A stretch of DNA of 59,737 nucleotides from a virus (Duplodnaviria > Caudoviricetes): the IMG/VR virus record IMGVR_UViG_3300034147_000035, positions 1 through 59,737 of that record; one strand, written 5' to 3'. The translations under genes and the position numbers were made by a program. Shown here piece by piece: positions 1,355-58,637 of this stretch. The notes beneath the pieces were generated by a model. The model was not told the origin of the DNA and did not search any database. It saw only the letters and a list, made by a program, of their open reading frames with translations. Numbering within the stretch: position 1 is the stretch's first letter; each line of letters begins with the position of its first letter.

Positions 1355-1370
1355 CTGGAGCAATCTACCC

Positions 1371-1399
1371 TTGCAGCGCGACAGGTGCGACTGTACGCT
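1371..1399 (+). promoter_or_regulatory. Sigma70-type early promoter inside a 14-bp inverted repeat
   Basis: TTGCAG-N17-TACGCT with upstream GAGCAA. Confidence 0.6.
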
Positions 1400-1428
1400 G
1401 CAAGGGTAGCAAGCAAAGGAAATCTACC

Positions 1429-5044: not shown

Positions 5045-5066
5045 CCGCCCGCCAGGGCCAGCCGCC

Positions 5067-12350: not shown

Positions 12351-12899
12351 ATGAGCACTGTCCAAGAAACGCTCATTCCTGCCTCGATGGTTCCCGGCTT
12401 GGTGACGATTGAGGATGGGGAGGGCAATCGCAAGAACGTCTATCCCATTGATGCCAAGGAGCTCCTTGCATCCGGCGAGTTCACGCTCGTTGAAAATGGC
12501 GCGATCGAGGCTTCCCGCATGGCGGCGACGCCACTGCGCTCTGGCTATGCTTCGGGTATTCCGAGCGAGCAGATTATCGCCGAAATCTCCGGTGTTGAAG
12601 GTCGCATCCTAGCGGCTGCCGATGAAGATGCCGCTGCCGAGGTCAAGGAAGCTGGTGACAGTCCCGATGCCAATCGCGAGCCGAGTGCCGTTCCAGCGGT
12701 CGGCTACACGGCGATGCAGGATGCTTCCGGTGCCGCGAATATGCCTCCGGCCGAAGAGGGCGATAAGGTTGAGCACAAGGGCGCGGCTGCTCGTGCTCGC
12801 GGTGACGACCGTGGCGGCAAGCCGACCCAGATGCCGGCTCAGCGCACTCCTGCTTCCAGTGGAATCGGTGGTGACAAGAAGGACGACGACAAAAGGTAA
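12351..12899 (+). CDS. Hypothetical virion-associated protein
   Basis: AAGGAG RBS; position in head operon. Confidence 0.7.
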   Translation: MSTVQETLIPASMVPGLVTIEDGEGNRKNVYPIDAKELLASGEFTLVENGAIEASRMAATPLRSGYASGIPSEQIIAEISGVEGRILAAADEDAAAEVKEAGDSPDANREPSAVPAVGYTAMQDASGAANMPPAEEGDKVEHKGAAARARGDDRGGKPTQMPAQRTPASSGIGGDKKDDDKR

Positions 12900-12924
12900 G
12901 TTTTCCGCCAGCCTGCGGAGCTTG

Positions 12925-12961
12925 ACGTCCGTCGCAGTTCCGCGCTGCGGCGGACGTTTTC
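12925..12961 (+). terminator. Rho-independent terminator
   Basis: ACGTCCGTCGCAG...CTGCGGCGGACGT followed by T-run. Confidence 0.7.
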
Positions 12962-12981
12962 TCAAGAAGGAGCTAGACGGA

Positions 12982-13311
12982 ATGCCCACCATCCCCGGCC
13001 CTGTGGATGATGCTGGCAACATCACTGTTCCCGCTGAAGGCGGGGCGACAATCCCCATTAAGGAAATGTCTACTGATGAACCCTCTGAACAAATAGATAT
13101 CTCATCGCTGCCGCTTAACTTCTATGTCGCTGGTCGCTTTGAAATAGTTCCGGGGCCAAATCCTAATGATGTTTTCGGTCGTCTTTTGGTTATCACTGAA
13201 GCGAATGCCGACATACTTTCCACTAAAGGTCATCCGTTTCAACTCCTGGATCTTACAGATCCTGACGTCCCTATCCCTCTTTGGAGTGGGACAATTCGGA
13301 GAGGTGAATGA
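12982..13311 (+). CDS. Hypothetical protein (109 aa), possible fibre adaptor
   Basis: AAGGAG RBS; ATGA-coupled to giant fibre gene. Confidence 0.7.
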   Translation: MPTIPGPVDDAGNITVPAEGGATIPIKEMSTDEPSEQIDISSLPLNFYVAGRFEIVPGPNPNDVFGRLLVITEANADILSTKGHPFQLLDLTDPDVPIPLWSGTIRRGE

Positions 13312-27425: not shown

Positions 27426-27482
27426 TGCTTGTATCTCTCCCCATAGTGAGGTATGGCATAGCTAGGTCAGGAGGCTTTTCTG

Positions 27483-28985
27483 ATGGACTCTAATCGCACC
27501 GCACTTCGCGTCGCCAAGGAACCCTCCTTCGGCGTAGCCCCGACCAATCCTCTGTATCAAGAGATTCGTCGGACCTCGGATGGGCTGGCTTTCACGCCCA
27601 CTAACGAGGTGACTCAGGAAATTGAGTCAACTCGTCAGGTTACTGATCTCATCAACACAGGACGTGATGCCGCTGGCGACATGGCCTTTGAACTTTCCAT
27701 TGAGAACATGGACTCCTTTATGGAGGGAATGTTCTGCAATCCTTGGCTTCGTACGCCAGAAGTGAAGAATGGTCCGGCGTGGGAGTATGGTGCGTCAGCT
27801 ACTCGCATCACGGCTTGCACCCCGACGACTGTCACGCTAGCGGCCACTTCAGTTCTTTCTGGTAGCCAGATTAACGCGACCGGTACTTCGTTCCTCGCCA
27901 ATATGCTTGTGAGTCTCTCTGGGTTTGCGAACCTGAATGGATTGTACAAGGTCTCCGGTTCTGCTGCTACGTCAATCACAATCGCTGGTGGTCCGACTGA
28001 CGCTGCTCCGGGTACGAATGCCCGCGTGAAGGTAGTCGGCGTGGAAGGAGCTGCGGCTGATATCACCGCAGTTATTTCCGGTGGGCCAGCTCTCGTCACG
28101 ACTGCGCTCAATTGGACGACTCTTGGGTTGATCGTCGGCCAGTGGGTCAAGATCTCCAATGAGGGCGGTGCCTACTCTTTCGCAACGGTGGCAAACAATG
28201 GATACGCTCGCATCAGCGCAATCACTGCCACCCGTCTCAGTTTCGATGCGACACAGGGTATCTTCGCTGCTGATACTGGAGCTGGCAAAACGATCCGAGT
28301 GTATTTCGGTGATACTATTCGTAACGGTATCACTCAGTACACTTATCGTGTTGAGAAAGAGTACACGCTTGCTGCTGGCGTTCGTTACTCATACTTCTCA
28401 GGTCACCAACCCTCAGCTCTCACGCTGACTGCTGAAACTCGTGGCGTTGTCACGGGTACTCAGTCTTGGATGGGTGCAGATGCTACTCCCCCATCGGCCA
28501 CTCGTGATGTTGGCGCTGCGACTTTGCCGATCTCGAACAAAACCGTGCTTGATGCCTCCAATTCCGTCCCAATGATTATGGAGGCTGGTGTTGTCCTCGG
28601 CGCCCCGAATTATGTAAGCGGGTTCACATTCACGTTTGACAATGGTCTTCGTGCTCGTAACGCAATCGGATCGCCGGGGGCAATCGGTCTGGGTATGGGC
28701 CGTGTGAACATTACGGGTACTCTCACTACTTATTTCGGTGATGAGGTCTTGCTCAATAAGCTGCGCGCTGCTCAGGCATCGGGAACGACTATTGCTTTCC
28801 GTGATGCAGCTAATCTGATGGGCGAGATCTGGGATATGCCACGTCTGAAATATAGTTCAGGTTTCCCGGAGGTTCCTGGCATTGATACCGATCTCACGAC
28901 TGCTCTAGGTTTCCAGGCGTTGCGGGATCTCGCGGCCAATCGTGACTATACGATTATGCTTTGCCGATTTGACTATTTGCAGTAA
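27483..28985 (+). CDS. Major tail tube protein
   Basis: SNR..L....E..FG..P N-terminus; G...ITG.LT.YF near C-terminus. Confidence 0.8.
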   Translation: MDSNRTALRVAKEPSFGVAPTNPLYQEIRRTSDGLAFTPTNEVTQEIESTRQVTDLINTGRDAAGDMAFELSIENMDSFMEGMFCNPWLRTPEVKNGPAWEYGASATRITACTPTTVTLAATSVLSGSQINATGTSFLANMLVSLSGFANLNGLYKVSGSAATSITIAGGPTDAAPGTNARVKVVGVEGAAADITAVISGGPALVTTALNWTTLGLIVGQWVKISNEGGAYSFATVANNGYARISAITATRLSFDATQGIFAADTGAGKTIRVYFGDTIRNGITQYTYRVEKEYTLAAGVRYSYFSGHQPSALTLTAETRGVVTGTQSWMGADATPPSATRDVGAATLPISNKTVLDASNSVPMIMEAGVVLGAPNYVSGFTFTFDNGLRARNAIGSPGAIGLGMGRVNITGTLTTYFGDEVLLNKLRAAQASGTTIAFRDAANLMGEIWDMPRLKYSSGFPEVPGIDTDLTTALGFQALRDLAANRDYTIMLCRFDYLQ

Positions 28986-35469: not shown

Positions 35470-38400
35470 TTGGCTGATAGAGTTTATCTGCTTGAGTGCA
35501 AGCCCCTTGATCCAGCTTCTGGAACTATAAAGAATGCGTACTTTTCAGCGGGCCTTACCACTGAAGCAGATCTCGGTACAGCTGATCCTTATCCTGTAAG
35601 ACTGCAGAGATCCTTCTCACATGAGACTTCTGTTTTTGAAGATAATATGCCGGGGCAGACTAATACTTCCGTCGGTTCAGCAGTTATTCTAAATACGGAT
35701 GGTCGGTTTGATTATCTTCTCAATTACAACTGGGATAATCGTGCAGTCACTATTAAAAGTGGTGAGGAAGGAGCAGCCTACGCGACTTATGTTACTGAGT
35801 TTGTAGGAGTCACTCTTGAACTTACTACTGATCTCAGCAGTCTTGTTCTTACCCTGAAAGATAATAGCTACAAGTTAATTGAACAGATGCAGAAGACTAA
35901 GTTCCTCGGCTCCGGGGCGCAGGAAGGCGGAGTTGAACTTAGAGATCGCCGGAAACCCTTGCTATTCGGAAAGACTCGTAATCTTTCTCCGGTACTGATT
36001 GACATAGCTCTTCTCACTTCACAGATTCACGATGGTACTCTGGCTTCTGTGGATGCAGTTTATGATCGTGGTGTACCTTTAACATTTTCTGCGAACTATG
36101 CCACCTATGCTCTGCTCGCAGCAGCCACGATCGCCCCAGGATATTATGCAACTTGTCTGGCACAGGGCTATCTTCGTTTAGGAGCTCCTCCTTACGGTAT
36201 CGTTACAGTGGATGCCGTTGGTCAGTTCAACACTGCTACAAATATCCCTGAGATGGTGAAGCAATTTCTACTCAGTACACGAGTAGGTCTTGTCACAGCA
36301 GATATAGATGTTGCTTCTTTCACTGAAGCTTCCGGGGAATGTCCTTATAATTTTGAGGGTGCTTATTTAGCAGAACCAGACTTTCAGGTCGATCAATTCG
36401 TGGAGACTATGGCTTCTTCCATGAATGCTTTCTGGTATGTAAGTCGTACTGGATTAATCACTTTCCGTCAATTTAGGTTCCGTCCTTCATCTGCTTCTAT
36501 ACGCGCTGAAGATCTTATGAATCTTGGCAAGGCAGCATCTCCTCAACCTCTACATAAGGTTCGTGTGAAATACGCCAAGAATGCTACAGTCATGTCACAG
36601 GGGGATTTCACTATCCCTGTACAAGCATTCAATGGTTATCTCACGAAACGCTATCATTATGTAGATATCTCTTCTGGTGAAATTCCTGCGAATTATGCTA
36701 ATGCCGGTGAGTATAAAGTCTTCTTAAATGATGTTCAGGTGAACGATCTTTCGGACGTTCAGTTTAGGATTCCCAATAATGAACCGTGGATCACCATTGA
36801 TAACTTAGGTGTCATCACGGTAACGAATTCAGGGGTTGCTTCTGCGAGTGCTGTCGTACGCGCTAGCATTGGGGAGTTCTCAGTAGAAGAAGTCTTTACT
36901 ATGGTGCGGGATTCTTCTGCACCACTACAGTCAATGTCGTTGACGCTATCTAGTAATCGCTTCTTCTTTGATGATCTTAATAAACCGGATCCTCCCGCGC
37001 AGACTATCACTATAACTGCGACAGGAAGTAATACTACTGCGCCGATTACTGTCACGGCGAAAGACAATCTTAACCAGAATGTCGTAGTGACAGGCGGCAC
37101 TATCCCGATAGCGAATGTATCTGTATCTCCTTTGGTATTCTATATTGAAGTGACTGCTGTCTCTGTTGATATGGTTTATCAGAAGCAGCGCATCATGGTT
37201 CAGCATGGAACGGATGCCGCTATTGCTGCGACTCTAGCCGCACTAGCAGCGTCTAATGATGCGATTACTTTCTATTATCAAGCTAATGCCCCGACTGTTG
37301 AGACAGATGGTGTTCAGGTAGATGATGTTTGGATTGATACTAATGACGGGAATAAGCAATATCGTTGGACCGGAATTAGTTGGTCCTCTATAACCGATAC
37401 TAGAGTCACAGATGCACTAGCGGCTGCGGCGGGTGCTCAAGCAACGGCTGATGGCAAGATCACTACTTACTTTAGTGATGTGTCACCGACAGCCCCAACC
37501 GGAGGTTTTGTTCAGGGAGATCTCTGGTACCAAGATACTACGAAAACTCTGTATCGCTGGAGCGGTTCTGCTTGGAGCCAGTCTGTCGGCACTTTTGGAG
37601 CCGAGTACTATGAGACAGTTTATGGCAAGCCGCTGAGTGAAGTTCTTATTGATGAGATGGAGTATAAGAACTCTACCAAATTCGCGAAGCGTTGGCTGGT
37701 TCGTGAAGGCGAAGGCATTATCAATTATGATCAAAAAGATAAAGGTGTACAGGGTGGAGCATATCTAAGAATAACTAGTCCCACTGTTCCAGTGGAATTA
37801 GTTACTAACGGAACTTTTCCGACGGCTACTACAGGATGGACTGCTGGTCCTAATACGACATTATCTATCGGTGCTCAGGCATTACGAGTTACAACTACTT
37901 CTACTGTGAGTGCCTATGCCTATCAAGCGATTACTTGTGTCGTAGGTAAGACATATTCTGTCTCCTATGAAAATAATGAGCGGATTGCCACTAGTGTTAT
38001 CTTTCAAATTGCAAATGATTCGGCAGGAACTTCAACGGTATATAGCGATACCACTGAAAGAAGTAGTGTATATACTTCTACTTTCGTAGCGACACAAACC
38101 ACCCATTATATTCGCTGTGTTGCTGTCGCTACCATCTCTGGTCGTTATGCTGACTTTGACAATATCTCTATAATGCAGACTGCTCCCGGGGATATCTGGT
38201 TGAGCTATGTCGGCGAGCCTGTTCCTTTTGATCCAGCAGCTTCTTACGAAGTTGAGATCGCTATTCGCCGTCCGTCGGGAGATGGTAAGGTCAATCTCGG
38301 GTTAGAGGGTCTTGCTGATGACAAGGTGACTCTTGTAAGCCGAACAGGTACTAATTCATATACGACCCCTCACTGGATATGCGCGGCTGCGGCGACTCCT

Positions 38401-39498
38401 AATACAGGATGGACTTATTACAAAGGTTATTTCAAAGGGAGGTCGGGTACAGGTTCTGCTACTGCGGGGACTATCGATGTCCCCGGTGTGATGCACACGA
38501 ATGTTGTTTATATACGACCTGTGATGCAGCTCAACTACCAAGCCACTTCAGGTGTGATGGATGTCGGTTATGTCCGTGTTCGTAAGACCCAAATGATAGA
38601 TCAACTACCTGATGGTACACACGGAAAGATCTATAAATCACAGCTGACAAACTATGCTCATAAGCTAACTGTGGTTGCTTCCGGGATGCAGATTGCAGAT
38701 CAGCGTAACTTGCCCCCGGTCAAGGCTCTTAATCTCGGGTTCAAGTATGGTGGGACGGTCACCTACTCGACGACTACCACACTCTGCACGATAAATATCA
38801 CGGCCAGCTCTTTTACGATTGGTAATATCACCGTCGCTTATAATGCGATGAGTACCACTATCAGTGGGACGGCTGGTACAGGTCCGTTTACTTATTATCT
38901 CTACTTTGACGATGCTGGCTATGTCGGCGGTGCAAAGACTTTGCTGAAGACTACAAACTCATTGCTTATCTACCAGTCGGATGATCGTGTCTTTATGGGT
39001 ACGGTTGTTTTCTCATTCCCATCGGCAGGAACCGGAGGGGGTGACGGTGATGTGGGTGGCGGCGGTTGTGTTGATGCTGAGGCATGGGTTGACACTCGTG
39101 ACAAAGGTTTCATACAGGCTAAGGAAATTGTGGAGGGAGACTATATCAGGGTACTCTCTGCAGACCGAAAGTTTACTGAATGGGCTCCCGTCTTAGGAAA
39201 CGAGATAAAGATGGAGGAGTCTTTCCAGTTAGTGAGTCGTACTAGTGGAAGTACTCTTCGCTGTTCTGCATCAACTCCTCTAACTCTTTCTGATGGTTCA
39301 TCCGTCTACCCCGGTGATCTTAAAGGACAAGAACTTCCAGTTTATGTGACAGAACTGGCGTGGGAAAAGCATGACGCTATTTGGATTGGACCTAGACCTG
39401 TAGCCTTTATTCACTTAGGTGGATTATGCTATGCTGCGGGAGATATCCCAGGACGTTCTATCTTCACACATAACCCGATAGAGAATCCAAAGCCCTAG
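35470..39498 (+). CDS. Tail tip/hub protein with carbohydrate-binding-like inserts and C-terminal Hint domain
   Basis: KPLLFG...N..PV and AVYDRG motifs; GGGG-CV...THN terminal domain. Confidence 0.75.
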   Translation: MADRVYLLECKPLDPASGTIKNAYFSAGLTTEADLGTADPYPVRLQRSFSHETSVFEDNMPGQTNTSVGSAVILNTDGRFDYLLNYNWDNRAVTIKSGEEGAAYATYVTEFVGVTLELTTDLSSLVLTLKDNSYKLIEQMQKTKFLGSGAQEGGVELRDRRKPLLFGKTRNLSPVLIDIALLTSQIHDGTLASVDAVYDRGVPLTFSANYATYALLAAATIAPGYYATCLAQGYLRLGAPPYGIVTVDAVGQFNTATNIPEMVKQFLLSTRVGLVTADIDVASFTEASGECPYNFEGAYLAEPDFQVDQFVETMASSMNAFWYVSRTGLITFRQFRFRPSSASIRAEDLMNLGKAASPQPLHKVRVKYAKNATVMSQGDFTIPVQAFNGYLTKRYHYVDISSGEIPANYANAGEYKVFLNDVQVNDLSDVQFRIPNNEPWITIDNLGVITVTNSGVASASAVVRASIGEFSVEEVFTMVRDSSAPLQSMSLTLSSNRFFFDDLNKPDPPAQTITITATGSNTTAPITVTAKDNLNQNVVVTGGTIPIANVSVSPLVFYIEVTAVSVDMVYQKQRIMVQHGTDAAIAATLAALAASNDAITFYYQANAPTVETDGVQVDDVWIDTNDGNKQYRWTGISWSSITDTRVTDALAAAAGAQATADGKITTYFSDVSPTAPTGGFVQGDLWYQDTTKTLYRWSGSAWSQSVGTFGAEYYETVYGKPLSEVLIDEMEYKNSTKFAKRWLVREGEGIINYDQKDKGVQGGAYLRITSPTVPVELVTNGTFPTATTGWTAGPNTTLSIGAQALRVTTTSTVSAYAYQAITCVVGKTYSVSYENNERIATSVIFQIANDSAGTSTVYSDTTERSSVYTSTFVATQTTHYIRCVAVATISGRYADFDNISIMQTAPGDIWLSYVGEPVPFDPAASYEVEIAIRRPSGDGKVNLGLEGLADDKVTLVSRTGTNSYTTPHWICAAAATPNTGWTYYKGYFKGRSGTGSATAGTIDVPGVMHTNVVYIRPVMQLNYQATSGVMDVGYVRVRKTQMIDQLPDGTHGKIYKSQLTNYAHKLTVVASGMQIADQRNLPPVKALNLGFKYGGTVTYSTTTTLCTINITASSFTIGNITVAYNAMSTTISGTAGTGPFTYYLYFDDAGYVGGAKTLLKTTNSLLIYQSDDRVFMGTVVFSFPSAGTGGGDGDVGGGGCVDAEAWVDTRDKGFIQAKEIVEGDYIRVLSADRKFTEWAPVLGNEIKMEESFQLVSRTSGSTLRCSASTPLTLSDGSSVYPGDLKGQELPVYVTELAWEKHDAIWIGPRPVAFIHLGGLCYAAGDIPGRSIFTHNPIENPKP

Positions 39499-39507
39499 GA
39501 ACAGACA

Positions 39508-40050
39508 ATGCCAAGATACTCCAAAGTTAATCGGAAGATCCCTGCTCGGGATGAGCTCCTATTGACTAAAACAACAAGAGATAATGAGAATGGATTAATT
39601 CTCGGAAACCATGATTCTGTGGCACCAGGACTTTATCCTGGTGAGGAAACCTTTGAGCTAGATGATGGAAATCTCATAGCATTACGAGTGGAGACTCACT
39701 GGTTATCGAATGGTGAAGGTGTCAGCTTTCATGCTTTTGCCAGATTGATTGAAGACGATGGCTCCTCCAAACTCTCTGCTCGAAACCAGCACATTGGATC
39801 TGCCTTTACCTATTCTGTTCCTGCTTTATTCGCAATTGAGCATGGAGTTGATGCTATTGCTACAGATGTGGCGAGGATTATCCTTGGGGAGGAACCCTAT
39901 CTAAAGGTAATGGTTCCTATGGGGGAAGGGGAAGAACCTCAGGAACAGCCGCTTCTCAATATTTCTGATATGGTCAAAGCGAATGCTAATATAAGAGATC
40001 AGATCAAACTTGCGGAACAGGTACGAGAGTATCCTAAAATCTCTTTGTAA
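39508..40050 (+). CDS. Hypothetical tail-region protein
   Basis: AGGA RBS; synteny. Confidence 0.7.
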   Translation: MPRYSKVNRKIPARDELLLTKTTRDNENGLILGNHDSVAPGLYPGEETFELDDGNLIALRVETHWLSNGEGVSFHAFARLIEDDGSSKLSARNQHIGSAFTYSVPALFAIEHGVDAIATDVARIILGEEPYLKVMVPMGEGEEPQEQPLLNISDMVKANANIRDQIKLAEQVREYPKISL

Positions 40051-42210: not shown

Positions 42211-43035
42211 GTGAGCATTTTCTTCGTCGCCCCAATAGAACAGCACCCTGACTATGACAAGGTGACCACTGTACCTGCGAGCGCACACGCAAACGCATCA
42301 TACCCTGCGAGTAATCTTCTCACTTACGATCCTACGCAGGTGATGCTAGCTACTCAGGTTGCCCCGGTAATCACGTGGGACTTAGGTGCTGCGAAGAGCT
42401 GGGATGTGATCTCATTGATCCATACGAATCTAGCGCATGACGCCACAATACTCGTGGAAGGCAGCACGAATAATTCTGTTTGGGTAACTCTCCAGGCGGC
42501 TGGAACTCTGGCTTTAGCTCATACAGTCGCTGGACAGACAGTCCAAAACCAGAAGCATATGCTCAGGCGTAATCTGACGCTGTTCGTTTCCCCTACAGTA
42601 TTGACCTATCGCTATATTCGTATTACTCCAACGAACACAGGTGGTGTCCTTCCATTCTTTGGGCGGTTGTTTGTCGGTCTTAAATGGAAGCCGACCTACG
42701 GCTGGCAGTATGGATCGCAAGTTAACTTCTTAGATCTTTCGCGCCATGAGCGCACCGATCGTGGGACGTTAGTGCTAGATTATATTCCGCCTATCCCCGG
42801 TGCCTCGGTGCAGATGGATTTCTTAAGTAAAGCTGAGATGATGGACTTTGCTTGGGAATTCAATTATTGGCGGGGTGCCGGGAAAGAATTTCTTGCTTGT
42901 CTTGATGTTGAGGATACGAAATACCTACAGAAAATGACATTTTATTGTACGATCACTGAAGGGAGAACAATTTCTTTTGACTCTTATAATACTCACAGCC
43001 AGACATGGACTCTTGAGAACATAGCTGCCGCTTAG
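42211..43035 (+). CDS. Minor tail protein (distal-tail-like)
   Basis: P.SNL, HTNL, YRYIRI and GRLFVG..W.P motifs. Confidence 0.65.
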   Translation: MSIFFVAPIEQHPDYDKVTTVPASAHANASYPASNLLTYDPTQVMLATQVAPVITWDLGAAKSWDVISLIHTNLAHDATILVEGSTNNSVWVTLQAAGTLALAHTVAGQTVQNQKHMLRRNLTLFVSPTVLTYRYIRITPTNTGGVLPFFGRLFVGLKWKPTYGWQYGSQVNFLDLSRHERTDRGTLVLDYIPPIPGASVQMDFLSKAEMMDFAWEFNYWRGAGKEFLACLDVEDTKYLQKMTFYCTITEGRTISFDSYNTHSQTWTLENIAAA

Positions 43036-43047
43036 AAAGACTTAACC

Positions 43048-44811
43048 GTGAATATACAAATCACGATAGACTCCGACGATAAGAAGGCGTGGATTAATGA
43101 CCGCATACCTCCGCACGTCTTTAACGTTCTTGCAGAGCTCCCGGGCCGCAAGCGGTATGTACAGGGCAAACCCTTCATAGAGCTCTCGAGGAGCAACCTA
43201 GAGTATCTAGACATACGTTTGGAGGGCATCACTTGGCGCGGGCCAGCGGCCAACCTAGTGGAGCAATTCCGGGCGATGCGTCTCGCCGAGAAGAACACTA
43301 GGGATGCTCGTTGGCTTGAGCCAGAAAGTGTTGAATTCCCTTTCAGGACTGTTCCATACCAGCATCAGCTTAAAGCATTTTCACTCGCCAGAGGTAAAGT
43401 CGCCTTCGGTTACTTCATGGAGCAGGGAACTGGAAAGACCAAAACTCTACTTGATGATGCTGCGGATATCTATCTCAACGGCGGTGAGGCAGGACGGATA
43501 GACACTCTCATTATTGTAGCGCCGAACGGAGTACACGCTCAGTGGATTAATGAGCAGGTGCCCGAGCACTTTCTTGAGTCTATCCCTTACGCGGGCGGGT
43601 ACACAGTAGCGTCACCAACTCTAGATGAGGCTAGGCAGTTTCGTAAGGCTAAGGAATTCAAGGATGGTCTTAGGATCATCGCTATTCATATTGACATGAT
43701 GAGTCATACGAGCGGTAAGAAACTCTTACAGGAACTTCTGCTCAGTTGCAACGCGATGCTCGTGGTAGATGAGAGTAGCCGAATTAAAGATCCTAATTCT
43801 AAGCGCACTAAGACTCTGTGCGAGCTGGGTAAGTTAGCGAAATATCGGCGCATTCTGACGGGCACCCCGATCTCACAGGGAGTGGAAGATATCTATTCTC
43901 AGTTCTACTTCTTGGATAAGCATATCCTCGGCTACAATAGCTTCTATGCTTTCCGGAATCATTTCTGCCAGCTTACCTTGATTGAAGTAGGTTCTGGGAA
44001 GAATAGGAAGAAATTTAACAAGATCACCGGCTACATCAACGAAGACGAACTCAAGCGTAAGATTGATTCCTACACCTACCGCGTGCTGAAAGAGGATTGC
44101 TTGGATTTGCCTGAGCGAAATTATATTAGGCAGGAAGTCTTGCTCACCCAAGAGCAGAAAGATATGTATGCCAAGATGAAGAAGGACTTCTTCCTTGACT
44201 TGGAAGCTGGAATCCTCACAGCTCGTATGGCAATCACTCGCTTGATACGTTTCCAACAGCTAATCGGCGGATTCATTTGGAAGCGCCCAAAGAAGGATCC
44301 AGATACTGGGAAAATTGTTGAGCCCGAAATCTACCAAGAATTTGATAACAACCGTGTGGAACGTACCTTAGATATTATCCGTGAATCCCAGAGTAAGGTC
44401 ATCGTCTACATCAAATTCGAAGGTGATTGGAATCTTCTCACAAGGGCGCTCACCGCAGCGAAGATTGGATGGGTGGATTATGTCGGCCGAACTAAGGATA
44501 AGGCTGAAAGCATCAGGCGCTTCCGGGACGACCCAGACGTTAAGGTCTTCATCGGTTCAAAGGCTGCTTTCTTCGGTCTCAATCTTACTGTCGCTTCCGA
44601 GGTCATCTGGTATGCGAGAGACTTCTCCCTAGAGAATGAACTCCAGGCTAATGACCGAGTCCATCGCATCGGGCAGCATAAGGTTGTGAACTACCATTAT
44701 CTTATCGCACCTAAGACTGTGGATGACCGAATAGATAAGGTACTCAAAGATAAGAAGGCTATCGCTGAGAACCTAATAGACATAAGGGATCTTTTTGCTG
44801 ATGACGAATAA
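43048..44811 (+). CDS. SNF2-family (SF2) helicase
   Basis: MEQGTGKT, DESS, LTGTP, GLNL and QANDRVHRIGQ motifs. Confidence 0.92.
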   Translation: MNIQITIDSDDKKAWINDRIPPHVFNVLAELPGRKRYVQGKPFIELSRSNLEYLDIRLEGITWRGPAANLVEQFRAMRLAEKNTRDARWLEPESVEFPFRTVPYQHQLKAFSLARGKVAFGYFMEQGTGKTKTLLDDAADIYLNGGEAGRIDTLIIVAPNGVHAQWINEQVPEHFLESIPYAGGYTVASPTLDEARQFRKAKEFKDGLRIIAIHIDMMSHTSGKKLLQELLLSCNAMLVVDESSRIKDPNSKRTKTLCELGKLAKYRRILTGTPISQGVEDIYSQFYFLDKHILGYNSFYAFRNHFCQLTLIEVGSGKNRKKFNKITGYINEDELKRKIDSYTYRVLKEDCLDLPERNYIRQEVLLTQEQKDMYAKMKKDFFLDLEAGILTARMAITRLIRFQQLIGGFIWKRPKKDPDTGKIVEPEIYQEFDNNRVERTLDIIRESQSKVIVYIKFEGDWNLLTRALTAAKIGWVDYVGRTKDKAESIRRFRDDPDVKVFIGSKAAFFGLNLTVASEVIWYARDFSLENELQANDRVHRIGQHKVVNYHYLIAPKTVDDRIDKVLKDKKAIAENLIDIRDLFADDE

Positions 44812-55127: not shown

Positions 55128-56529
55128 ACTCACTTATGAAGACCTGAATGACCAACAGAAAGCTGCGGTGGATGACATCGTACGTTGGTTCTTATCAGGC
55201 GACCACTCCAAGCCGTACATCCTTCAGGGCTATGCCGGAACAGGTAAGACTACCCTCATTCGCATTCTACTTAACCGACTTCGCGTGGCTCTCTCGCGCG
55301 TAGCATTAGCAGCCCCTACTAATCGTGCTGCTAAGGTTCTCGCAAACAAGACGGGTCTGTTCACGCAAACAGTTCACAAGTTAATCTACCTCACACTGTC
55401 GGAAGAAATCAATTTCCAGCGTGAACGACTTCGCATGTGGGATGAGGCTGTCAGTTTTAACGAGCTCAGTGAGGCTCTTATCACTCAGTCAGGGCAGGAT
55501 CTCCAAATGGAGTACCGTGCTCTACTAGCAGAAGATGGTCTCGCTTTTGACGAAGCCGAATTCAAGGAATTCTGTGCTCAACGTGGTGAGACTATCCTCA
55601 AGTTTGAAGGTTTGGAATTGCCTACCGATCCCAATGCTAGGCAGGAGATCTTCGTCACCATCCGCAAGGAAAAGATCGCACTGCACAAGCAAGCTATCAT
55701 TGATCTTATGTCTGAGGATCTTCCAGTGCGTAAGAAAGAGCCGCTGGAAGTCATCGCCAAGTACAGCCTCTTTATGATAGACGAGTCTTCCATGGTCAAT
55801 GAGACTCATGGTAAGGACATTATCTCCTTCGGTATCCCGACGATTCTAGTTGGGGACCCATTTCAGCTACCACCCGTCAAGGCGAAGCCCTATTGGCATA
55901 ACCTGTCGCCTCAATCGGTGCTGACCAAGATTGAACGCCAGAAAGGTATTGGTGCCGGAATTCCTCTTGCAGGTGAAAGGCTACGCAATGGAGAAGAAAT
56001 TTCCGCAAATGAAAGCGTCAGCATTCACCACCGCAATTCACTCCCTGACGCAGCTTGGACAAGCACAGATCAAATTATCTGTGGAACTCACAAAACTCGC
56101 GAGCGCCTTTGCCGCTTTGTCCGAGCGAAAATGGGACATACCACCGCCCACCCTCAGCCGGGTGAAAAAGTCGTTTCTGTCTATAACGACAAGAAGCGAG
56201 GAATAATGAATGGTGAGATCTATACTGTTCGTAGTAGTGAGGTGATTCGTAATGGTACTGTTGCACGACTCTCCATCATTGATCCGTACGGTCGGGTTAT
56301 TGAGCCGGTTGATGTATGGATCAAAGGCCTCGGGGGTAGAAGTTTCACCGATTTCCTCGACGATCAATTCGGAAAATTCTGGTGGGGATACGCCATTACC
56401 TGTCATCAATCCCAGGGATCCGAATGGCCCCGAACAATCGTGTGCGACGACTGGCCGGGAGACGGACACGACCGATGGCTCTATACAGGATTGACCCGCG
56501 CCCAACAGCACTGTGATCTTGTCAGATGA
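55117..56529 (+). CDS. RecD/Dda-like SF1B helicase
   Basis: GYAGTGKTT, APTNRAA, DESSM, GDPFQLPPV, T.H.SQGSEW and YTGLTRA motifs. Confidence 0.92.
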   Translation: MTIELTYEDLNDQQKAAVDDIVRWFLSGDHSKPYILQGYAGTGKTTLIRILLNRLRVALSRVALAAPTNRAAKVLANKTGLFTQTVHKLIYLTLSEEINFQRERLRMWDEAVSFNELSEALITQSGQDLQMEYRALLAEDGLAFDEAEFKEFCAQRGETILKFEGLELPTDPNARQEIFVTIRKEKIALHKQAIIDLMSEDLPVRKKEPLEVIAKYSLFMIDESSMVNETHGKDIISFGIPTILVGDPFQLPPVKAKPYWHNLSPQSVLTKIERQKGIGAGIPLAGERLRNGEEISANESVSIHHRNSLPDAAWTSTDQIICGTHKTRERLCRFVRAKMGHTTAHPQPGEKVVSVYNDKKRGIMNGEIYTVRSSEVIRNGTVARLSIIDPYGRVIEPVDVWIKGLGGRSFTDFLDDQFGKFWWGYAITCHQSQGSEWPRTIVCDDWPGDGHDRWLYTGLTRAQQHCDLVR

Positions 56530-57095
56530 GTCCTCGTCCCCCATATCCTATTCAGCCATTTCCCAAGGTCAAGGACTATGTCGCTTACGCTGGCATCGGT
56601 TCAAAGGAGACTCCCGACAATATCTGTCACTTGATGCGGGGGATTGCTCGTATGCTGTACGACCGGGGCTATGTTCTCCGATCAGGTGGCGCACCGGGAG
56701 CTGACGAAGCATTCGAACAGGGGACTCCAGTGATGGCGACCATGGAGATCTTTCTCCCGTGGAATCGCTTCAACGGCAAGCCCGATCTTCTTCATCTCAC
56801 CCCGACGGAACTTGGCGTAGCCAGAAGCATCGCTGAGAAATATCATCCGAATTGGTTGGCTTGTTCCGAAGGTGCGAAAAAGCTGCACACTCGTAACACA
56901 ATGCAGATTCTAGGGCGTGATTGTGCAACCCCTTCTAAATTCGTAGTCTGCTGGACTAGCAATGGTAAAGCGATTGGTGGTACAGGTCAAGCTCTCCGCA
57001 TCGCTGAAGACAAGAAAATTAAGATCTACAACCTACATGATCCTGGAACACGAATACTATTCTACCAAGAGTTAGGCTGGGAACATGACTTATAA
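56526..57095 (+). CDS. SLOG/DprA-like nucleotide-binding protein
   Basis: YAGIGS..TP, LRSGGA.GAD.AFE, RN..QILG and GGTGQA.RIA motifs. Confidence 0.85.
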   Translation: MSPRPPYPIQPFPKVKDYVAYAGIGSKETPDNICHLMRGIARMLYDRGYVLRSGGAPGADEAFEQGTPVMATMEIFLPWNRFNGKPDLLHLTPTELGVARSIAEKYHPNWLACSEGAKKLHTRNTMQILGRDCATPSKFVVCWTSNGKAIGGTGQALRIAEDKKIKIYNLHDPGTRILFYQELGWEHDL

Positions 57096-57101
57096 TGGGG
57101 C

Positions 57102-57130
57102 TTGCATTATGAACAGTCCTGCGGTACAGT
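57102..57130 (+). promoter_or_regulatory. Sigma70-type promoter for leader, gene and tRNA unit
   Basis: TTGCAT-N17-TACAGT. Confidence 0.6.
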
Positions 57131-57153
57131 TGACGCTTAAGGATAAGACCCTT

Positions 57154-57235
57154 AAGGAGAAGGCCAATGACCTAGCAGATTCGCGCTCCGCCAGAGCTCC
57201 CAGACAAAAGCCAATTCTAGTCTGGGAGCAAACCA
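57154..57235 (+). promoter_or_regulatory. Amber-interrupted leader uORF (MT*QIRAPPELPDKSQF*) with SD-sequestering hairpin
   Basis: SD AAGGAG 57154-59, ATG 57167, TAG 57173 and 57218; 10-bp stem 57196-205/57220-229 hides GGGAG. Confidence 0.7.
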
Positions 57236-57763
57236 ATGACCGCTATTAATCGTCCTTATCTAACCAGTTTTAACTTTGAGTCCGTGCAGTACTCGGACAC
57301 TCAGCTGGAACAATTCCACAAACTTACTCGCAACTATATCGCCAGCCTTGATCTCGGCTGCCCGAGTGCGAAACACGTTGAAGTTGTTGGTCATACTGAG
57401 CATGACCAGCTCAAAGGAATGGATGGTCGCCAGAAATATCTCGCTTGGGTCAAGGGATGGAAAGAGATCTATCGCCACCTGAGCATGATCATCCGCCACC
57501 ATAAGAAATATCGTAAGACCACAACCTTCCCGCGCCTGAACGCGAGGCAGGAAGAGCTCTGGTTCAAGCTCAATCCTGGGAATAATCAAACCGCTTGTGA
57601 GCATCTAGGTGCTCTTTCCAAGAAGCATCTTGAGCGACTCCAGGAGACTGCTCAGGCTATGCTTAATGCTCGGTGGAATGCCAAACTCGCTGCTGCTGAA
57701 CGGCGACGTCGGGCTATTGGTCTTCGTATCGTACCGGCCGATCCAGTTCGTTTGGAGGCCTAA
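57236..57763 (+). CDS. Hypothetical basic helical protein (175 aa)
   Basis: GGGAG SD 7 nt upstream; YLAWVKGWKEIY..LS..IR segment and basic C-terminal helix. Confidence 0.8.
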   Translation: MTAINRPYLTSFNFESVQYSDTQLEQFHKLTRNYIASLDLGCPSAKHVEVVGHTEHDQLKGMDGRQKYLAWVKGWKEIYRHLSMIIRHHKKYRKTTTFPRLNARQEELWFKLNPGNNQTACEHLGALSKKHLERLQETAQAMLNARWNAKLAAAERRRRAIGLRIVPADPVRLEA

Positions 57764-57772
57764 CTCGTGGCT

Positions 57773-57847
57773 GGCCTTGTCAGCATAATGGTAATGCTCC
57801 GGTCTCTAAAACCGATGATCTCAGTTCGATTCTGAGCTTGGCCGCCA
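57773..57847 (+). tRNA. tRNA with CUA anticodon (amber-suppressor-like, tRNA-Trp-like body)
   Basis: D arm GCAT-AATGGTA-ATGC, anticodon arm CGGT-CTCTAAA-ACCG, T arm CTCAG-TTCGATT-CTGAG, G73, encoded CCA; two U-U mismatches in acceptor stem. Confidence 0.75.
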
Positions 57848-57881
57848 TGAGTAATTATTTTGCTTTTGAACAAAATAACGC

Positions 57882-57910
57882 TTGCGCTATGAGCAAACGC
57901 CAGCTACACC
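57882..57910 (+). promoter_or_regulatory. Sigma70-type promoter
   Basis: TTGCGC-N17-TACACC (GCTACAC) with upstream A/T tract. Confidence 0.6.
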
Positions 57911-57914
57911 TATA

Positions 57915-58154
57915 GGTAGGAAGGGTCAAGGCAACGGGTCAACCCCCAGCCCTCGGGCTAGCGGTTTTCCTCTTCCGATCCTGGGTACTTCGGTACTCTT
58001 GGTGAACGAAGTAGCTTTCGACGAACAATGTGCGTGACGCGGTGAGCGACTGTTTCTAACTGTCTTCGGACGACCGGACTCAATCGATCACTCAATAGTT
58101 CCAAGGACCTCGGGTTTACCCTTGATTCTTGATAAGTCACCCGACCCCTCCGCC
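57915..58154 (+). ncRNA. Candidate structured ncRNA or long leader
   Basis: Ends can pair; several internal hairpins, two with C-UUCG-G loops; no ORF in the supplied track on +. Confidence 0.4.
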
Positions 58155-58173
58155 TTATTCTGGGGGAATTGCC

Positions 58174-58305
58174 ATGAAGAAAATTGCAGGGTTCGTTCTA
58201 GCGACCGCTTTTCTCGCCTCCAGTGCTTCAGCAGCGAAACCGAGTGAAGCTTGGTTCTTCTGCAAGCAATTCCTTGGGCCGCAGGTCTGCGGATTCCTCA
58301 AGTAA
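58174..58305 (+). CDS. 43-aa secreted peptide with a Cys pair
   Basis: GGGGGA RBS; MKKIAGFVLATAFLASSASA signal-like sequence; terminator follows. Confidence 0.65.
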   Translation: MKKIAGFVLATAFLASSASAAKPSEAWFFCKQFLGPQVCGFLK

Positions 58306-58325
58306 GTGATCCTCCCCAGGACCAC

Positions 58326-58360
58326 AAAGGGGTCGTACTTCGGTACGGCCCCTTTCCTCT
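58326..58360 (+). terminator. Rho-independent terminator
   Basis: AAAGGGGTCGTAC-TTCG-GTACGGCCCCTTT. Confidence 0.75.
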
Positions 58361-58510
58361 TTGTGCGGTCGCAGAGAGTGGCGTAAGACGGTTTGTCGGG
58401 TCAGCGATACCCCGGCGCAGGAGGTGACCACTCCTCTGGCTGGCGTTCAAATCGTCGTTACGCCCCTGAAATCATCCCTATCCGCGATTAATATCTGATA
58501 AAATTAGTGC

Positions 58511-58539
58511 TTGCGCTTTGAACTGTTGCAGCCTACAAA
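58511..58539 (+). promoter_or_regulatory. Sigma70-type promoter
   Basis: TTGCGC-N17-TACAAA; followed by the same leader as 57882. Confidence 0.5.
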
Positions 58540-58637
58540 CAAAGGTAGGCAGGGTCAGGGCAAGGGTAGACCCCTCTCAGGACTGCTAACCTATTGATCG
58601 GCAGCATCCTGCTGTCGTGTATGGAGGGGGTTTCAGC

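What the first reader, a model, noticed from the sequence alone, without database searches (positions are those of the whole stretch)
57102..57847. Amber-readthrough sensor: MT-UAG-QI-RAPP leader, RBS-hiding hairpin, gene, CUA tRNA
Seen: a promoter (57102-30), then a perfect SD (TAAGGAG) and ATG ACC TAG at 57167. Past the amber the frame reads Q-I-R-A-P-P-E-L-P-D-K-S-Q-F-amber-S-G-S-K-P and joins ATG 57236 in frame. A perfect 10-bp stem (57196-205/57220-229) buries that gene's SD, and the PP codons (57188-93) end 2 nt before the 5' arm. An amber-anticodon tRNA starts 9 nt after the gene's stop. Established: RAPP/RAGP motifs (ApdA, ApdP, SecM) stall ribosomes, and stalling opens RBS hairpins as in secM-secA. 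Inference: normal termination at codon 3 keeps the gene off, while UAG readthrough (suppressor charged or RF1 impaired) stalls a ribosome on RAPP, melts the stem and turns the gene on. This would be a stop-codon-fidelity switch, with the 175-aa basic protein possibly acting on termination, the ribosome or the tRNA. I know of no described equivalent.
Basis: partly seen in the sequence, partly recalled or inferred. Interest (0 to 1): 0.92.

Follow-up and report, generated by a model that had tools for sequence, protein, structure and literature searches.

The report
Suppressor-tRNA-gated stalling leader in phage
An environmental phage carries a small self-contained unit in which a tiny leader reaches a ribosome-stalling Arg-Ala-Pro-Pro motif only if its UAG stop codon is read through, most likely by the UAG-reading tRNA encoded just downstream, and the stall should uncover the start signal of the one gene in between.

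Summary
Its own refutation test, whether the leader is conserved upstream of homologs, came out in its favour.

- **Leader conservation.** All 5 loci where DNA upstream of a homolog could be read have the same layout. A ribosome-binding site and ATG are followed by 1-2 codons, then TAG, then 2-5 codons, then R-A-P-P (3 loci), R-D-P-P or K-D-P-P. A hairpin starts at or just after the Pro codons and covers the gene's start region.
- **tRNA match.** All 3 loci with readable downstream DNA carry a CUA-type tRNA right after the gene.
- **Four-base variant.** In one relative the motif is reached only by reading TAGA as one step, and that locus's tRNA has one extra anticodon-arm base.
- **Genetic code.** The phage is not recoded: TAG ends 16 of 56 ORFs.
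- **Controlled protein.** It is a 175-aa basic helical protein with no known fold or family. Its C-terminal domain recurs next to PTH2 hydrolase genes, CUA tRNAs or a tmRNA in unrelated large phages.

Nothing is tested experimentally, and the protein's role is open. Earlier agents of this scan reported the same class on other phage DNA. My six paper searches found no description of it.

The parts
57100..57130 (+). Promoter-like motif. It has an extended -35-like GCTTGC, then 17 nt after TTGCAT a -10-like TACAGT. It is one of four + strand copies in the genome.
   Evidence: Searches show the recurrence. The generic sigma-70 scan did not call it. The copy at 57880 is followed by RNA contigs that begin at 57925-57930, which fits a working promoter of this type. 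Function here is inferred.
57136..57156 (+). Small 7-bp hairpin at the likely 5' end of the transcript. It overlaps 4 of the 7 bases of the leader's own ribosome-binding site.
   Evidence: Centroid fold. Its role is unknown. L002 has an 8-bp hairpin in the same place, seen by eye.
57153..57159 (+). Ribosome-binding site of the leader (TAAGGAG), 7 nt before ATG 57167.
57167..57175 (+). Gate: ATG ACC TAG. This is a two-codon ORF if UAG is read as stop.
   Evidence: TAG is at codon 3 in the window, L002, L005 and L006, and at codon 4 (as TAGA) in L004.
57176..57220 (+). Read-through part of the leader: Q I R A P P E L P D K S Q F, then a second TAG at 57218-57220. The RAPP codons are 57182-57193.
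   Evidence: RAPP occurs only here in all six frames of the genome. QIRAPP recurs in L006 and Q-N-P-RAPP in L002.
57196..57205 (+). 5' arm of the masking hairpin. It starts 2 nt after the second Pro codon, inside the mRNA stretch that a ribosome stalled with Pro codons in its P and A sites would cover.
   Evidence: The ribosome footprint length (about +15 nt from the P-site codon) is recalled, not from a call.
57220..57229 (+). 3' arm of the masking hairpin. It contains the gene's ribosome-binding site GGGAG (57224-57228).
   Evidence: In the duplex test against 2000 shuffles, p is about 0.0005.
57236..57763 (+). Controlled gene: a 175-aa basic (pI 9.96) four-helix protein of unknown function. 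ATG 57236 is the true start.
   Evidence: In the alignment, 18 of 20 family members begin 3-8 residues before the invariant N-R-P motif. The other two (P0004, P0005) were called with about 35-residue N-terminal extensions. AF2 gave mean pLDDT 81.2. There is no Pfam hit, no PDB fold hit and no BFVD fold hit. The C-terminal domain is homologous to a widespread small phage protein family, hhalign 99.6%.
57773..57847 (+). tRNA with a CUA anticodon in a 7-nt loop (CUCUAAA), an encoded CCA end, and two U-U mismatches in the acceptor stem. It is the presumed key for the leader's UAG.
   Evidence: Which amino acid it carries is not determined.

Best explanation
This is a self-contained phage transcription unit of promoter, leader, gene and tRNA. 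It makes translation of its one protein depend on decoding of a stop codon by its own tRNA.

If UAG at leader codon 3 is read as stop, the ribosome leaves after two codons, well short of the hairpin. The hairpin keeps the gene's ribosome-binding site paired, so the gene is off.

If the CUA tRNA has been made, processed and charged, and wins against release factor 1, the ribosome reads on for five codons into Arg-Ala-Pro-Pro. It stalls with the two Pro codons in its P and A sites. In that position it covers the 5' arm of the hairpin, which starts 2 nt downstream. This frees the 3' arm with the ribosome-binding site, so other ribosomes can start the 175-aa protein.

The unit therefore reports 'UAG is being read through now' and converts that into synthesis of one protein.

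- Shown by comparison: the parts, their order and their co-variation.
- Inferred: the read-through, the stall, the unmasking and the direction (on rather than off).
- My best guess for the protein: it acts on translation, either limiting or exploiting stop-codon read-through, for example by handling ribosomes or tRNAs after read-through. That part is weakly supported.
For: 1. **Conserved leader.** All 5 of 5 loci with readable upstream DNA fit the pattern.
   - Window: M T UAG Q I R A P P.
   - L002: M R UAG Q N P R A P P.
   - L006: M R UAG Q I R A P P.
   - L005: M L UAG H R N K D P P.
   - L004: M K Y UAGA F T R N R D P P.
   - The proteins behind them are only 32-59% identical to the window's.
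   - The R, A, P and P codons differ at third positions between loci (read), as expected for a translated stretch lying after a stop codon.
2. **tRNA linkage.** All 3 of 3 loci with readable downstream DNA have a CUA-type tRNA 8-68 nt after the gene. As background, 0 of 79 other phage loci fetched by a loose pattern carry one.
3. **Lock and key change together.** In L004 the zero frame after TAG gives I H S stop. Reading TAGA as one step gives ...R D P P and runs on. That locus's tRNA has an 8-nt anticodon loop, ACUCUAAG. ARAGORN could not name its anticodon, and the Rfam tRNA model needs one inserted base in the anticodon arm (fold).
4. **Hairpin position.** In every locus the 5' arm lies at or within 3 nt after the Pro codons (in L002 on the R-A-P codons), and the 3' arm covers the gene's ribosome-binding site or start codon, although the sequences are unrelated. 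Pairing between these two segments beats 2000 shuffles with p = 0.0005 (window), 0.0005 (L004), 0.003 (L005) and 0.027 (L002). L006 gives 0.11.
5. **Flanks differ.** A DprA-like gene lies upstream in the window, and other genes in L002 and L004. Leader, gene and tRNA therefore travel as one unit.
6. **Published properties of RAPP.**
   - RAPP and RGPP give robust arrest that EF-P does not relieve, with the third and fourth codons in the P and A sites.
   - Arg is irreplaceable, and Asp in place of Ala is partly permissive (PMC12992588, abstract and sections 7, 8, 10).
   - A minimal RxPP motif is reported as sufficient for arrest (PMC10951233, discussion passage).
Against: - No experiment exists.
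- RAPP arrest was studied on long nascent chains whose upstream residues modulate it (PMC10951233 passage). Here the chain would be only 8-10 residues.
- L005 has Lys where Arg is called irreplaceable.
- Fold energies of whole leader segments are unremarkable (z = -1.9, -1.0, -2.6, -1.0 and +0.4). The L006 pairing is not significant (p = 0.11).
- In L002 and L005 the leader's stop lies 5 and 2 nt before the gene's start. That would also fit plain translational coupling without any stall.
- In the window and L004 the leader frame runs into the gene (in the window through a second TAG).
- Only 3 loci show both leader and tRNA.
- Two exact-spelling scans of IMG/VR found no further member: 0 stretches, and only the known L002 contig among 80 loci.
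- The tRNA's amino-acid identity and charging are unknown, and its acceptor stem has two U-U mismatches.
- RNA contigs of two metatranscriptomes cover the neighbouring small RNA but not the cassette. This is no evidence either way.
- TAG also ends 16 of 56 ORFs of the phage, so an efficient suppressor would have side effects.
Confidence: 0.68

Rival explanations
1. The gate is read-through, but no stall is needed. After the tRNA decodes UAG, the ribosome translates the whole leader and melts the hairpin in passing. The gene is then started by termination-reinitiation (coupling), or made as an N-terminally extended fusion.
For: The leader stop lies 5 nt (L002) and 2 nt (L005) before the gene's start codon. 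In L004 the +1 frame runs without a stop into the gene. In the window it does so through a second TAG.
Against: This does not explain why an xPP arrest-type motif is kept in 5 of 5 leaders, always immediately before the 5' arm. RAPP occurs nowhere else in six frames of the genome. In L006 the leader ends 30 nt before the start. A fusion is impossible in 3 of 5 loci, because the frame differs or a TAA/TGA stop intervenes. In the family alignment, 18 of 20 proteins begin a few residues before the invariant N-R-P motif.
Confidence: 0.15
2. The parts are the same but the logic is inverted or different. The stalled ribosome, or collisions behind it, lowers expression. This could act by mRNA cleavage or rescue pathways, or through an effect on transcription or processing of the downstream tRNA. 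The unit would then be a negative feedback on the tRNA rather than an on-switch for the protein.
For: The tRNA lies in the same apparent transcription unit. A phage that ends 16 of 56 ORFs with TAG would benefit from limiting suppression.
Against: The hairpin masks the ribosome-binding site or start codon of the gene in every locus. That is the classical arrangement for stall-induced activation (SecM-secA, recalled). No terminator-like U run follows the hairpin.
Confidence: 0.08
3. There is no read-through. ATG-x-TAG is a two-codon minigene, as in the lambda bar regions (recalled), or is meaningless. The RAPP frame and the neighbouring tRNA are coincidences, and the hairpin is just an mRNA structure.
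For: Each single feature is short. The tRNA's function is untested. A loose pattern for this leader spelling matches 82 stretches in IMG/VR, almost all by chance.
Against: 5 of 5 relatives keep the xPP motif in the frame that follows the stop, with synonymous differences. The frame and the tRNA loop size change together in L004. A CUA tRNA is present in 3 of 3 family loci against 0 of 79 background loci.
Confidence: 0.04
4. The phage uses an alternative genetic code (TAG as a sense codon). The 'leader' is then simply the N-terminus of a 198-aa protein.
For: The frame 57167..57763 is open if TAG is read as a residue.
Against: TAG ends 16 of 56 ORFs. Coding density is the same under every recoding (0.922-0.933). 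In the family alignment, 18 of 20 proteins start just before the invariant N-R-P motif. In 3 of 5 relatives the leader cannot be joined to the gene.
Confidence: 0.03

Closest known systems
RAPP/RGPP-type regulatory arrest peptides (ApdA, ApdP, ApcA; SecM with RAGP). Sources: PMC12992588 (abstract and sections 7, 8, 10 read), PMC10951233 (passages read), PMC7897499 and PMC10987492 (search listing only).
   Same: A short ORF upstream of the regulated gene carries an Arg-Ala-Pro-Pro core. In the described peptides the stall has Pro codons in the P and A sites. A downstream ribosome-binding site is held in a stem that a stalled ribosome would open (the SecM-secA arrangement is recalled).
   Different: There is no signal peptide or membrane segment, and no Sec/YidC gene downstream. 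The nascent chain at the stall would be 8-10 residues. The motif lies behind a stop codon, so it is reached only after read-through. The unit is in a phage and includes the matching tRNA gene. Two relatives use R-D-P-P or K-D-P-P.
prfB (release factor 2) autoregulation by a +1 frameshift at an early in-frame UGA (recalled, no call).
   Same: An in-frame stop codon near the start of an ORF works as a sensor of the competition between termination and an alternative decoding event.
   Different: prfB senses RF2 supply and shifts frame on a slippery site without a special tRNA. Here the alternative event is decoding by a dedicated tRNA, and the output goes through an arrest motif and a hairpin to a separate gene.
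Leader-peptide attenuation (trpL, hisL) that senses charged tRNA supply (recalled; the his leader appears only in the listing for PMC4046918).
   Same: Translation of a tiny leader reports the activity of a particular tRNA species and sets expression of downstream genes through alternative RNA pairing.
   Different: Those leaders use sense codons and control transcription termination, and stalling signals a lack of the tRNA. Here a stop codon is used, control is translational, and stalling signals that the tRNA is present.
Phage-encoded suppressor tRNAs in stop-codon-recoded phages (bioRxiv 10.1101/2021.08.26.457843 and PMC10607447, search listing and abstract starts only).
   Same: A phage-encoded tRNA that reads UAG.
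   Different: This genome is not recoded. The tRNA is tied to one leader and one gene. No such leader was mentioned in what I saw of those papers, and I did not read their full texts.
Laboratory frameshift-suppressor and evolved UAGN-decoding tRNAs with 8-nt anticodon loops (PMC4764823, passages read; sufD and sufJ recalled).
   Same: The relative L004 has an 8-nt loop containing UCUA, and a UAGA site that must be read as one step. PMC4764823 reports that an extended loop was required for detectable UAGN decoding and that UAGA was decoded best.
   Different: The L004 case is natural and paired with a leader. The extra base sits on the 5' side of the loop (ACUCUAAG) rather than as U33.5. The window's own tRNA has a normal 7-nt loop.
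Earlier reports of this scan on other phage DNA (e1-5652102, e1-5754727, e1-5837765, e1-5874904, e1-6043642 and others). These are AI notes, not publications.
   Same: The design is the same: UAG, UGA or a four-base word gates an RxPP leader; a hairpin covers the next gene's start; a matching phage tRNA is nearby; an 'unknown protein' is often among the controlled genes.
   Different: Many of those cassettes include a PTH2-like hydrolase and sit in large phages. This one is a minimal three-part unit in a roughly 60-kb phage with no PTH2. Its single controlled gene shares a domain with the small proteins I found next to PTH2 genes.

Membership tests
RAPP-type regulatory arrest peptides (ApdA/ApdP/ApcA/SecM class) | An R-A/G-P-P (or RAGP/RAPG) core in a small ORF upstream of the regulated gene | tested here: met
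   RAPP is present in the window, L002 and L006. L004 has RDPP and L005 has KDPP. It is the only RAPP in six frames of the genome.
RAPP-type regulatory arrest peptides (ApdA/ApdP/ApcA/SecM class) | Ribosome arrest with the third and fourth motif codons in the P and A sites | not testable with these tools
   This needs toeprinting or in vitro translation. The property itself is taken from PMC12992588, section 7.
RAPP-type regulatory arrest peptides (ApdA/ApdP/ApcA/SecM class) | A monitoring substrate: an N-terminal signal or membrane segment, with a protein-localisation gene (Sec/YidC) downstream | tested here: not met
   Only 5-7 residues precede the motif. The downstream gene has no Pfam family. 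The element works like this class but is not a member of the monitoring-substrate group.
RAPP-type regulatory arrest peptides (ApdA/ApdP/ApcA/SecM class) | The downstream ribosome-binding site is sequestered in a stem that the stalled ribosome would disrupt | tested here: met
   In the duplex test, p is at most 0.027 in 4 of 5 loci and 0.11 in L006.
Amber suppressor tRNA | A cloverleaf tRNA with a CUA anticodon in a 7-nt loop | tested here: met
   ARAGORN, Rfam at 51.4 bits and the fold.
Amber suppressor tRNA | The tRNA is aminoacylated and decodes UAG in vivo | not testable with these tools
   The only indirect support is the conserved coding stretch after the leader's UAG. BLAST gave no clear isotype.
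Stop-codon-recoded phage (TAG as a sense codon) | Many essential genes interrupted by in-frame TAG, and TAG rare as a terminator | tested here: not met
   TAG ends 16 of 56 ORFs. Recoding brings no gain in coding density.
Four-base (quadruplet) decoding tRNA with a matched site (relative L004 only) | An anticodon loop enlarged by one base, plus a site whose downstream frame needs a +1 step | tested here: met
   The 8-nt loop ACUCUAAG is shown. TAGA read as one step gives RDPP, while the zero frame stops after 3 codons. Decoding itself is untested.
PTH2-linked suppressor-tRNA modules of large phages (class reported by this scan) | A PTH2-family hydrolase gene inside the gated unit | tested here: not met
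   PF01981 has no match in the window at E up to 1.
PTH2-linked suppressor-tRNA modules of large phages (class reported by this scan) | A small helical protein carrying the Y-L-x-W-V-x-x-W-K domain | tested here: met
   hhalign gives 99.6% probability over 72 columns. Relatives of that protein sit directly after PTH2 genes in L009 and L010. A CUA tRNA or a tmRNA lies within 1 kb in L009, L010 and L012, but not in L011.
Intrinsic-terminator attenuator | A G+C-rich hairpin followed by a run of U | tested here: not met
   The stem is followed by AAACCAATG. The terminator scan reports nothing there.

The most novel reading that the evidence does not exclude
Leader, gene and tRNA form a portable 'key, lock and cargo' cassette. 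The tRNA's main job is to act as a private key for its own leader. Key and lock co-evolve freely between a three-base word (UAG) and a four-base word (UAGA), which would make this a natural use of four-base decoding for gene control. The cargo, a member of a widespread phage protein family that otherwise travels with PTH2 hydrolases, CUA tRNAs and tmRNA, would then reshape what happens at stop codons. It could oppose release factor 1 or deal with ribosomes and peptidyl-tRNAs left by read-through. The cassette would thus be a feedback controller of stop-codon reading during infection.
Probability: 0.3. Interest if true: 0.92.

Novelty: new variant of a known kind. Interest (0 to 1): 0.8.

Why it matters
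Arrest-peptide switches are known as sensors of protein export or of small molecules. Leader peptides are known as sensors of ordinary charged tRNAs. A natural switch whose input is 'a stop codon (or a four-base word) is being decoded by my own tRNA' would be a new input class.

It would also give phage suppressor tRNAs in non-recoded genomes a regulatory role. Until now their role in such genomes has been unclear.

Because the unit is tiny (about 750 nt) and self-contained, it is directly testable in a laboratory strain. It could serve as a natural orthogonal translational gate.

It also points to a large family of uncharacterised phage proteins (335 cluster representatives at E up to 0.001) as candidates for factors acting on termination, read-through or ribosome rescue.

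Tried and rejected
**Searches that did not extend the set of loci**
Only 5 loci with upstream DNA and 3 with downstream DNA could be read.
- GTDB genome scans with both family alignments found no relative.
- IMG/VR with alignment A2 found none.
- GenBank phages by tblastn found none for the window protein or for two distant relatives.
- The cassette DNA has no blastn match in GenBank phages.
- Exact-spelling scans of IMG/VR: the M-x-TAG-Q-x-RAPP pattern gave 0 stretches. The looser M-x-TAG-x-x-x-RAPP pattern gave 82 stretches and 80 loci. Only the already known contig (L090, the contig of L002) has a CUA tRNA, and 6 of 80 have any tRNA. That pattern is therefore mostly chance.

**Function of the protein**
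- No Pfam family. The best hit was RecJ_C at E 0.033, below its cut-off.
- phrog_37012, of unknown function, matched at E 0.0015.
- No Foldseek match at E up to 0.001 in PDB or BFVD. Weak rows such as UvsY were not pursued.
- The Atlas structure rows were all below TM 0.4.
- No longer or fused forms were found. No Pfam domain was found in 10 longer members.
- The pdb_via_wide library was not available.
- Complex prediction was not used. I had no partner with a prior good enough to justify it.

**tRNA identity**
- No match in E. coli genomes.
- Only weak, mixed matches (Thr, His, Trp) in phages.

**Readings rejected**
- Alternative genetic code.
- The 54-aa ORF 57085..57249 in another frame. 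It is not conserved, because L002 and L004 have other genes upstream.
- An intrinsic terminator.

**Other leads that went nowhere**
- Read-through fusions of TAG-ended genes: 4 of 16 TAG-ended ORFs run in frame into the next gene, against 3 of 40 ORFs ended by TAA or TGA. The numbers are too small, and PHROG names do not settle it.
- RNA evidence: no RNA contig lies on the leader, gene or tRNA, and a gap in contigs proves nothing. The DNA contigs laid there show no variants, so no population data on the leader were gained.
- The bioRxiv paper 10.64898/2026.09.22.753630 was opened (passages only) and is unrelated.
- Supplementary files of papers were not opened. They could hold lists of RAPP-containing small ORFs that bear on novelty.
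Full report
**What the window is.** The window is one whole IMG/VR virus record. It is 59,737 bases long, linear, and estimated 82% complete. In my ORF set (ORFs sought on the + strand only), the long ORFs are tightly packed on that strand. Upstream of the finding lie a 5'-3' exonuclease, a Dda-like helicase and a DprA-like gene. Near-identical DNA of the 56500-58600 stretch is held by 18 groundwater or sediment metagenome runs that carry at least half of its sampled words.

**The observation.**
  - TAAGGAG lies at 57153-57159, ATG at 57167, then ACC, then TAG at 57173.
  - With TAG shown as X, the frame reads M T X Q I R A P P E L P D K S Q F X S G S K P M T A I N. It therefore joins ATG 57236 in frame through a second TAG.
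- The perfect 10-bp stem 57196-57205 / 57220-57229 appears in the minimum-energy and centroid folds.
  - It contains the gene's GGGAG.
  - It is one of six distinct perfect stems of that size in the genome, where Markov simulations give about one 10-mer hit.
- The tRNA at 57773-57847 starts 9 nt after the gene's TAA.
  - It has CUA in a normal 7-nt loop and scores 51.4 bits on the Rfam tRNA model.
  - Its acceptor stem has two U-U mismatches.
- RAPP occurs exactly once in all six frames of the 59.7 kb, in this leader.
- The promoter is the weakest element.
  - The generic sigma-70 scan did not call it.
  - It is, however, one copy of a motif that recurs on the + strand at 57100, 57880, 58509 and 45723.
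  - RNA contigs from two metatranscriptome studies begin 14-19 nt after the -10-like hexamer of the 57880 copy. Promoters of this type are therefore probably active.

**Is the gene's start right, and is the phage recoded?**
- The 175-aa protein has 19 relatives in the first search (20 proteins including itself, among 164 candidates).
- In the alignment, 18 of 20 begin three to eight residues before an invariant N-R-P motif. P0004 and P0005 were called with about 35-residue N-terminal extensions. ATG 57236 is therefore the start, and the leader is not the protein's N-terminus.
- TAG ends 16 of 56 ORFs in my crude + strand ORF set.
- Reading TAG, TGA or TAA as a residue does not raise coding density: 0.927, 0.933 and 0.922 against 0.929.
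- The phage therefore uses the standard code and still carries a UAG-reading tRNA.

**The comparative test.**
- These gave one IMG/VR relative, L002, 53% identical. They also gave three further metagenome loci: L004 at 32%, and L005 and L006, which end inside the gene.
- All five loci, the window included, show the same anatomy. It consists of a ribosome-binding site, a start codon, one or two codons, TAG, two to five codons, then R-A-P-P (window, L002, L006), R-D-P-P (L004) or K-D-P-P (L005).
- Between loci, the codons for R, A, P and P differ at third positions while the residues stay. That is the signature of a translated stretch, here located after a stop codon.
- Directly at or after the Pro codons begins the 5' arm of a hairpin. 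Its 3' arm covers the ribosome-binding site or start codon of the gene.
- The hairpin sequences are unrelated between loci.
- A targeted test of pairing between the Pro segment and positions -20 to +3 of the gene start, against 2000 shuffles each, gave these values:

| Locus | p |
|---|---|
| window | 0.0005 |
| L004 | 0.0005 |
| L005 | 0.003 |
| L002 | 0.027 |
| L006 | 0.11 |

- Whole-segment fold energies are not remarkable (z from -2.6 to +0.4). It is the position of the stem that is conserved, not exceptional stability.

**The tRNA and the four-base variant.**
- Downstream DNA is readable in three loci, and all three have a CUA-type tRNA right after the gene.
- Two further relatives, P0002 and P0003, have called protein ends that look like a translated tRNA. 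The last residues of P0003 match the translation of the window's own tRNA around the anticodon arm. This is an inference from protein sequence only.
- As background, 80 phage loci fetched by a loose leader pattern contain any tRNA in 6 cases. Only one has a CUA tRNA, and that one is the contig of L002 again.
- The most telling locus is L004.
  - After M K Y TAG, the zero frame gives three residues and TAA.
  - If TAGA is taken as one step, the frame reads F T R N R D P P and continues. This parallels H R N K D P P of L005.
  - The tRNA of exactly this locus has one extra base in its anticodon arm. The fold shows an 8-nt loop, ACUCUAAG. ARAGORN could not name an anticodon. The Rfam model needs an insertion there.
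- Published selections found that an enlarged loop was required for detectable UAGN decoding and that UAGA was read best (PMC4764823, passages).
- Lock and key thus change together, though I could see this in one locus only.

**Mechanism.**
- A ribosome that terminates at codon 3 should reach only about 15 nt past its P-site codon. That footprint figure is recalled, not from a call. In all five loci this is short of the 5' arm, narrowly so in L002.
- A ribosome stalled with the two Pro codons in its P and A sites would cover most or all of the 5' arm.
- Published work supports the stall.
  - RAPP and RGPP arrest robustly and are refractory to EF-P.
  - The arrest has the third and fourth motif codons in the P and A sites.
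  - Arg is irreplaceable, and Asp instead of Ala is partly permissive (PMC12992588, abstract and sections 7, 8, 10).
  - A minimal RxPP motif is reported as sufficient (PMC10951233, discussion passage).
Read-through of UAG by the cassette's own tRNA leads to a stall at RAPP. The stall frees the gene's ribosome-binding site.
- Arguments against:
  - No experiment exists.
  - The nascent chain would be very short.
  - L005 has Lys in place of Arg.
  - The L006 stem is weak.
  - The leader stops 5 nt (L002) and 2 nt (L005) before the gene's start, which would also allow plain translational coupling without a stall.
- I give stall-mediated gating 0.68, coupling or fusion without a stall 0.15, and the other readings the rest.

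**The controlled protein.**
- It is basic (pI 9.96) and is predicted with mean pLDDT 81 as four helices, the last two forming a long hairpin.
- It has no Pfam family, no fold match in PDB or BFVD at E up to 0.001, and no longer or fused forms.
- A profile of 38 family members found 335 cluster representatives at E up to 0.001. About 18 of these are full length. The rest are proteins of 80-190 residues sharing the C-terminal two-helix domain. The profile-profile probability is 99.6%.
- Four such distant relatives could be fetched with context.
  - In L009 and L010 the relative lies directly after a PTH2-family peptidyl-tRNA hydrolase gene (E 3.6e-13 and 3.6e-15).
  - L010 and L012 have a CUA tRNA within 1 kb, and L009 has a tmRNA.
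  - L011 has none of these within 1.5 kb.
- The window itself has no PTH2.
- This association suggests that the protein acts on translation, but it does not say how.

**Comparison and novelty.**
- The unit works like a SecM/ApdA-type arrest switch but fails the defining 'monitoring substrate' features, having no export signal and no Sec/YidC target.
- It shares the idea of an early in-frame stop as a sensor with prfB, and the idea of a leader that reports on one tRNA with trp and his attenuation. Both comparisons are recalled.
- My six paper searches found no paper describing a natural leader gated by a suppressor tRNA. The library lacks most subscription journals, and I opened no supplements.
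- Earlier agents of this scan reported the same class on other phage DNA, often with PTH2 genes and four-base variants. Those are unchecked AI notes. I used them as leads (the PTH2 check) and not as support.
- What this window adds:
  - a minimal three-part form in a phage of about 60 kb;
  - a second, independent family of controlled genes whose domain links it to the PTH2 modules;
  - one more case of the leader's frame and the tRNA's loop size changing together.

**Verdict.** The role of the protein is open. I rate it a new variant of a known kind, namely an arrest-leader switch with a new kind of input, and give it an interest of 0.8.

Noticed in passing
window 57925-58151 (and 58509-58570): RNA contigs from two metatranscriptome studies cover only 57925-58151 (depth 13) and 57930-58142 (depth 184, with adapter letters directly before 57930). 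They lie just after the promoter-like motif at 57880. This points to a stable RNA of about 220 nt with no Rfam family. The first 30 nt or so recur after the motif copy at 58509. L002 has a similar promoter-like motif after its tRNA but only loose similarity beyond it.
   Followed up: partly
window 57100, 57880, 58509, 45723 (+ strand): A recurring promoter-like motif: an A-rich stretch, GCTTGCNNTATGANCA, then a TACA- or TATAGT-type hexamer 17 nt after TTGC. There are 6 matches on both strands at up to 2 mismatches, and 0 of 100 shuffles reach 6.
   Followed up: partly
window 1061-1678, 12409-13311, 35470-40050, 42211-44811: Four of 16 TAG-ended ORFs run in frame and without another stop into the next gene. 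The same holds for 3 of 40 ORFs ended by TAA or TGA. One pair is an unknown 274-aa protein followed by a 587-aa helicase-like protein. These could be read-through fusions made by the tRNA, or chance.
   Followed up: partly
window 27453-27485: ATG GCA TAG with GAGGT directly before it lies 30 nt upstream of, and in frame with, the start of the 500-aa minor-tail-like gene. No xPP motif follows. Its meaning is unknown.
   Followed up: no
L009 1028-1416 and L012 748-1143: In two large-phage loci the PTH2-like gene appears to start upstream of its called start and to carry an in-frame TAG at codon 8. That would be direct gating by read-through, without an arrest motif. The L012 gene also seems to change frame midway. 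L009 has a tRNA-like stretch around 905-990, not called by ARAGORN, whose loop contains UCUA.
   Followed up: no
protein P0053 (family member, no DNA seen): The end of its called protein looks like a translated tRNA, including a G-S-N-P T-loop signature. The stretch at the anticodon position would spell UUA or UCA, meaning a suppressor of another stop codon. This is an inference from protein letters only.
   Followed up: no
L002 about 4978-5054 (G001:C1:15904-15980): A second, weak tRNA-like match (28.1 bits, just under the 29-bit threshold) lies 360 nt after the CUA tRNA of the L002 contig.
   Followed up: no
L004 3334-3894 and 5490-5564: The gene just upstream of the L004 leader ends with its stop abutting the leader's ATG. 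By eye it resembles GcrA-type regulators of Alphaproteobacteria; that name is recalled, not tested. A normal tRNA-Gln (UUG) lies 1 kb downstream.
   Followed up: no
window, L002, L005, L006 leaders: In all four three-base leaders the base after TAG is C (TAG-CAG three times, TAG-CAT once). In the four-base leader it is A. This may tune the competition between the tRNA and release factor 1.
   Followed up: no
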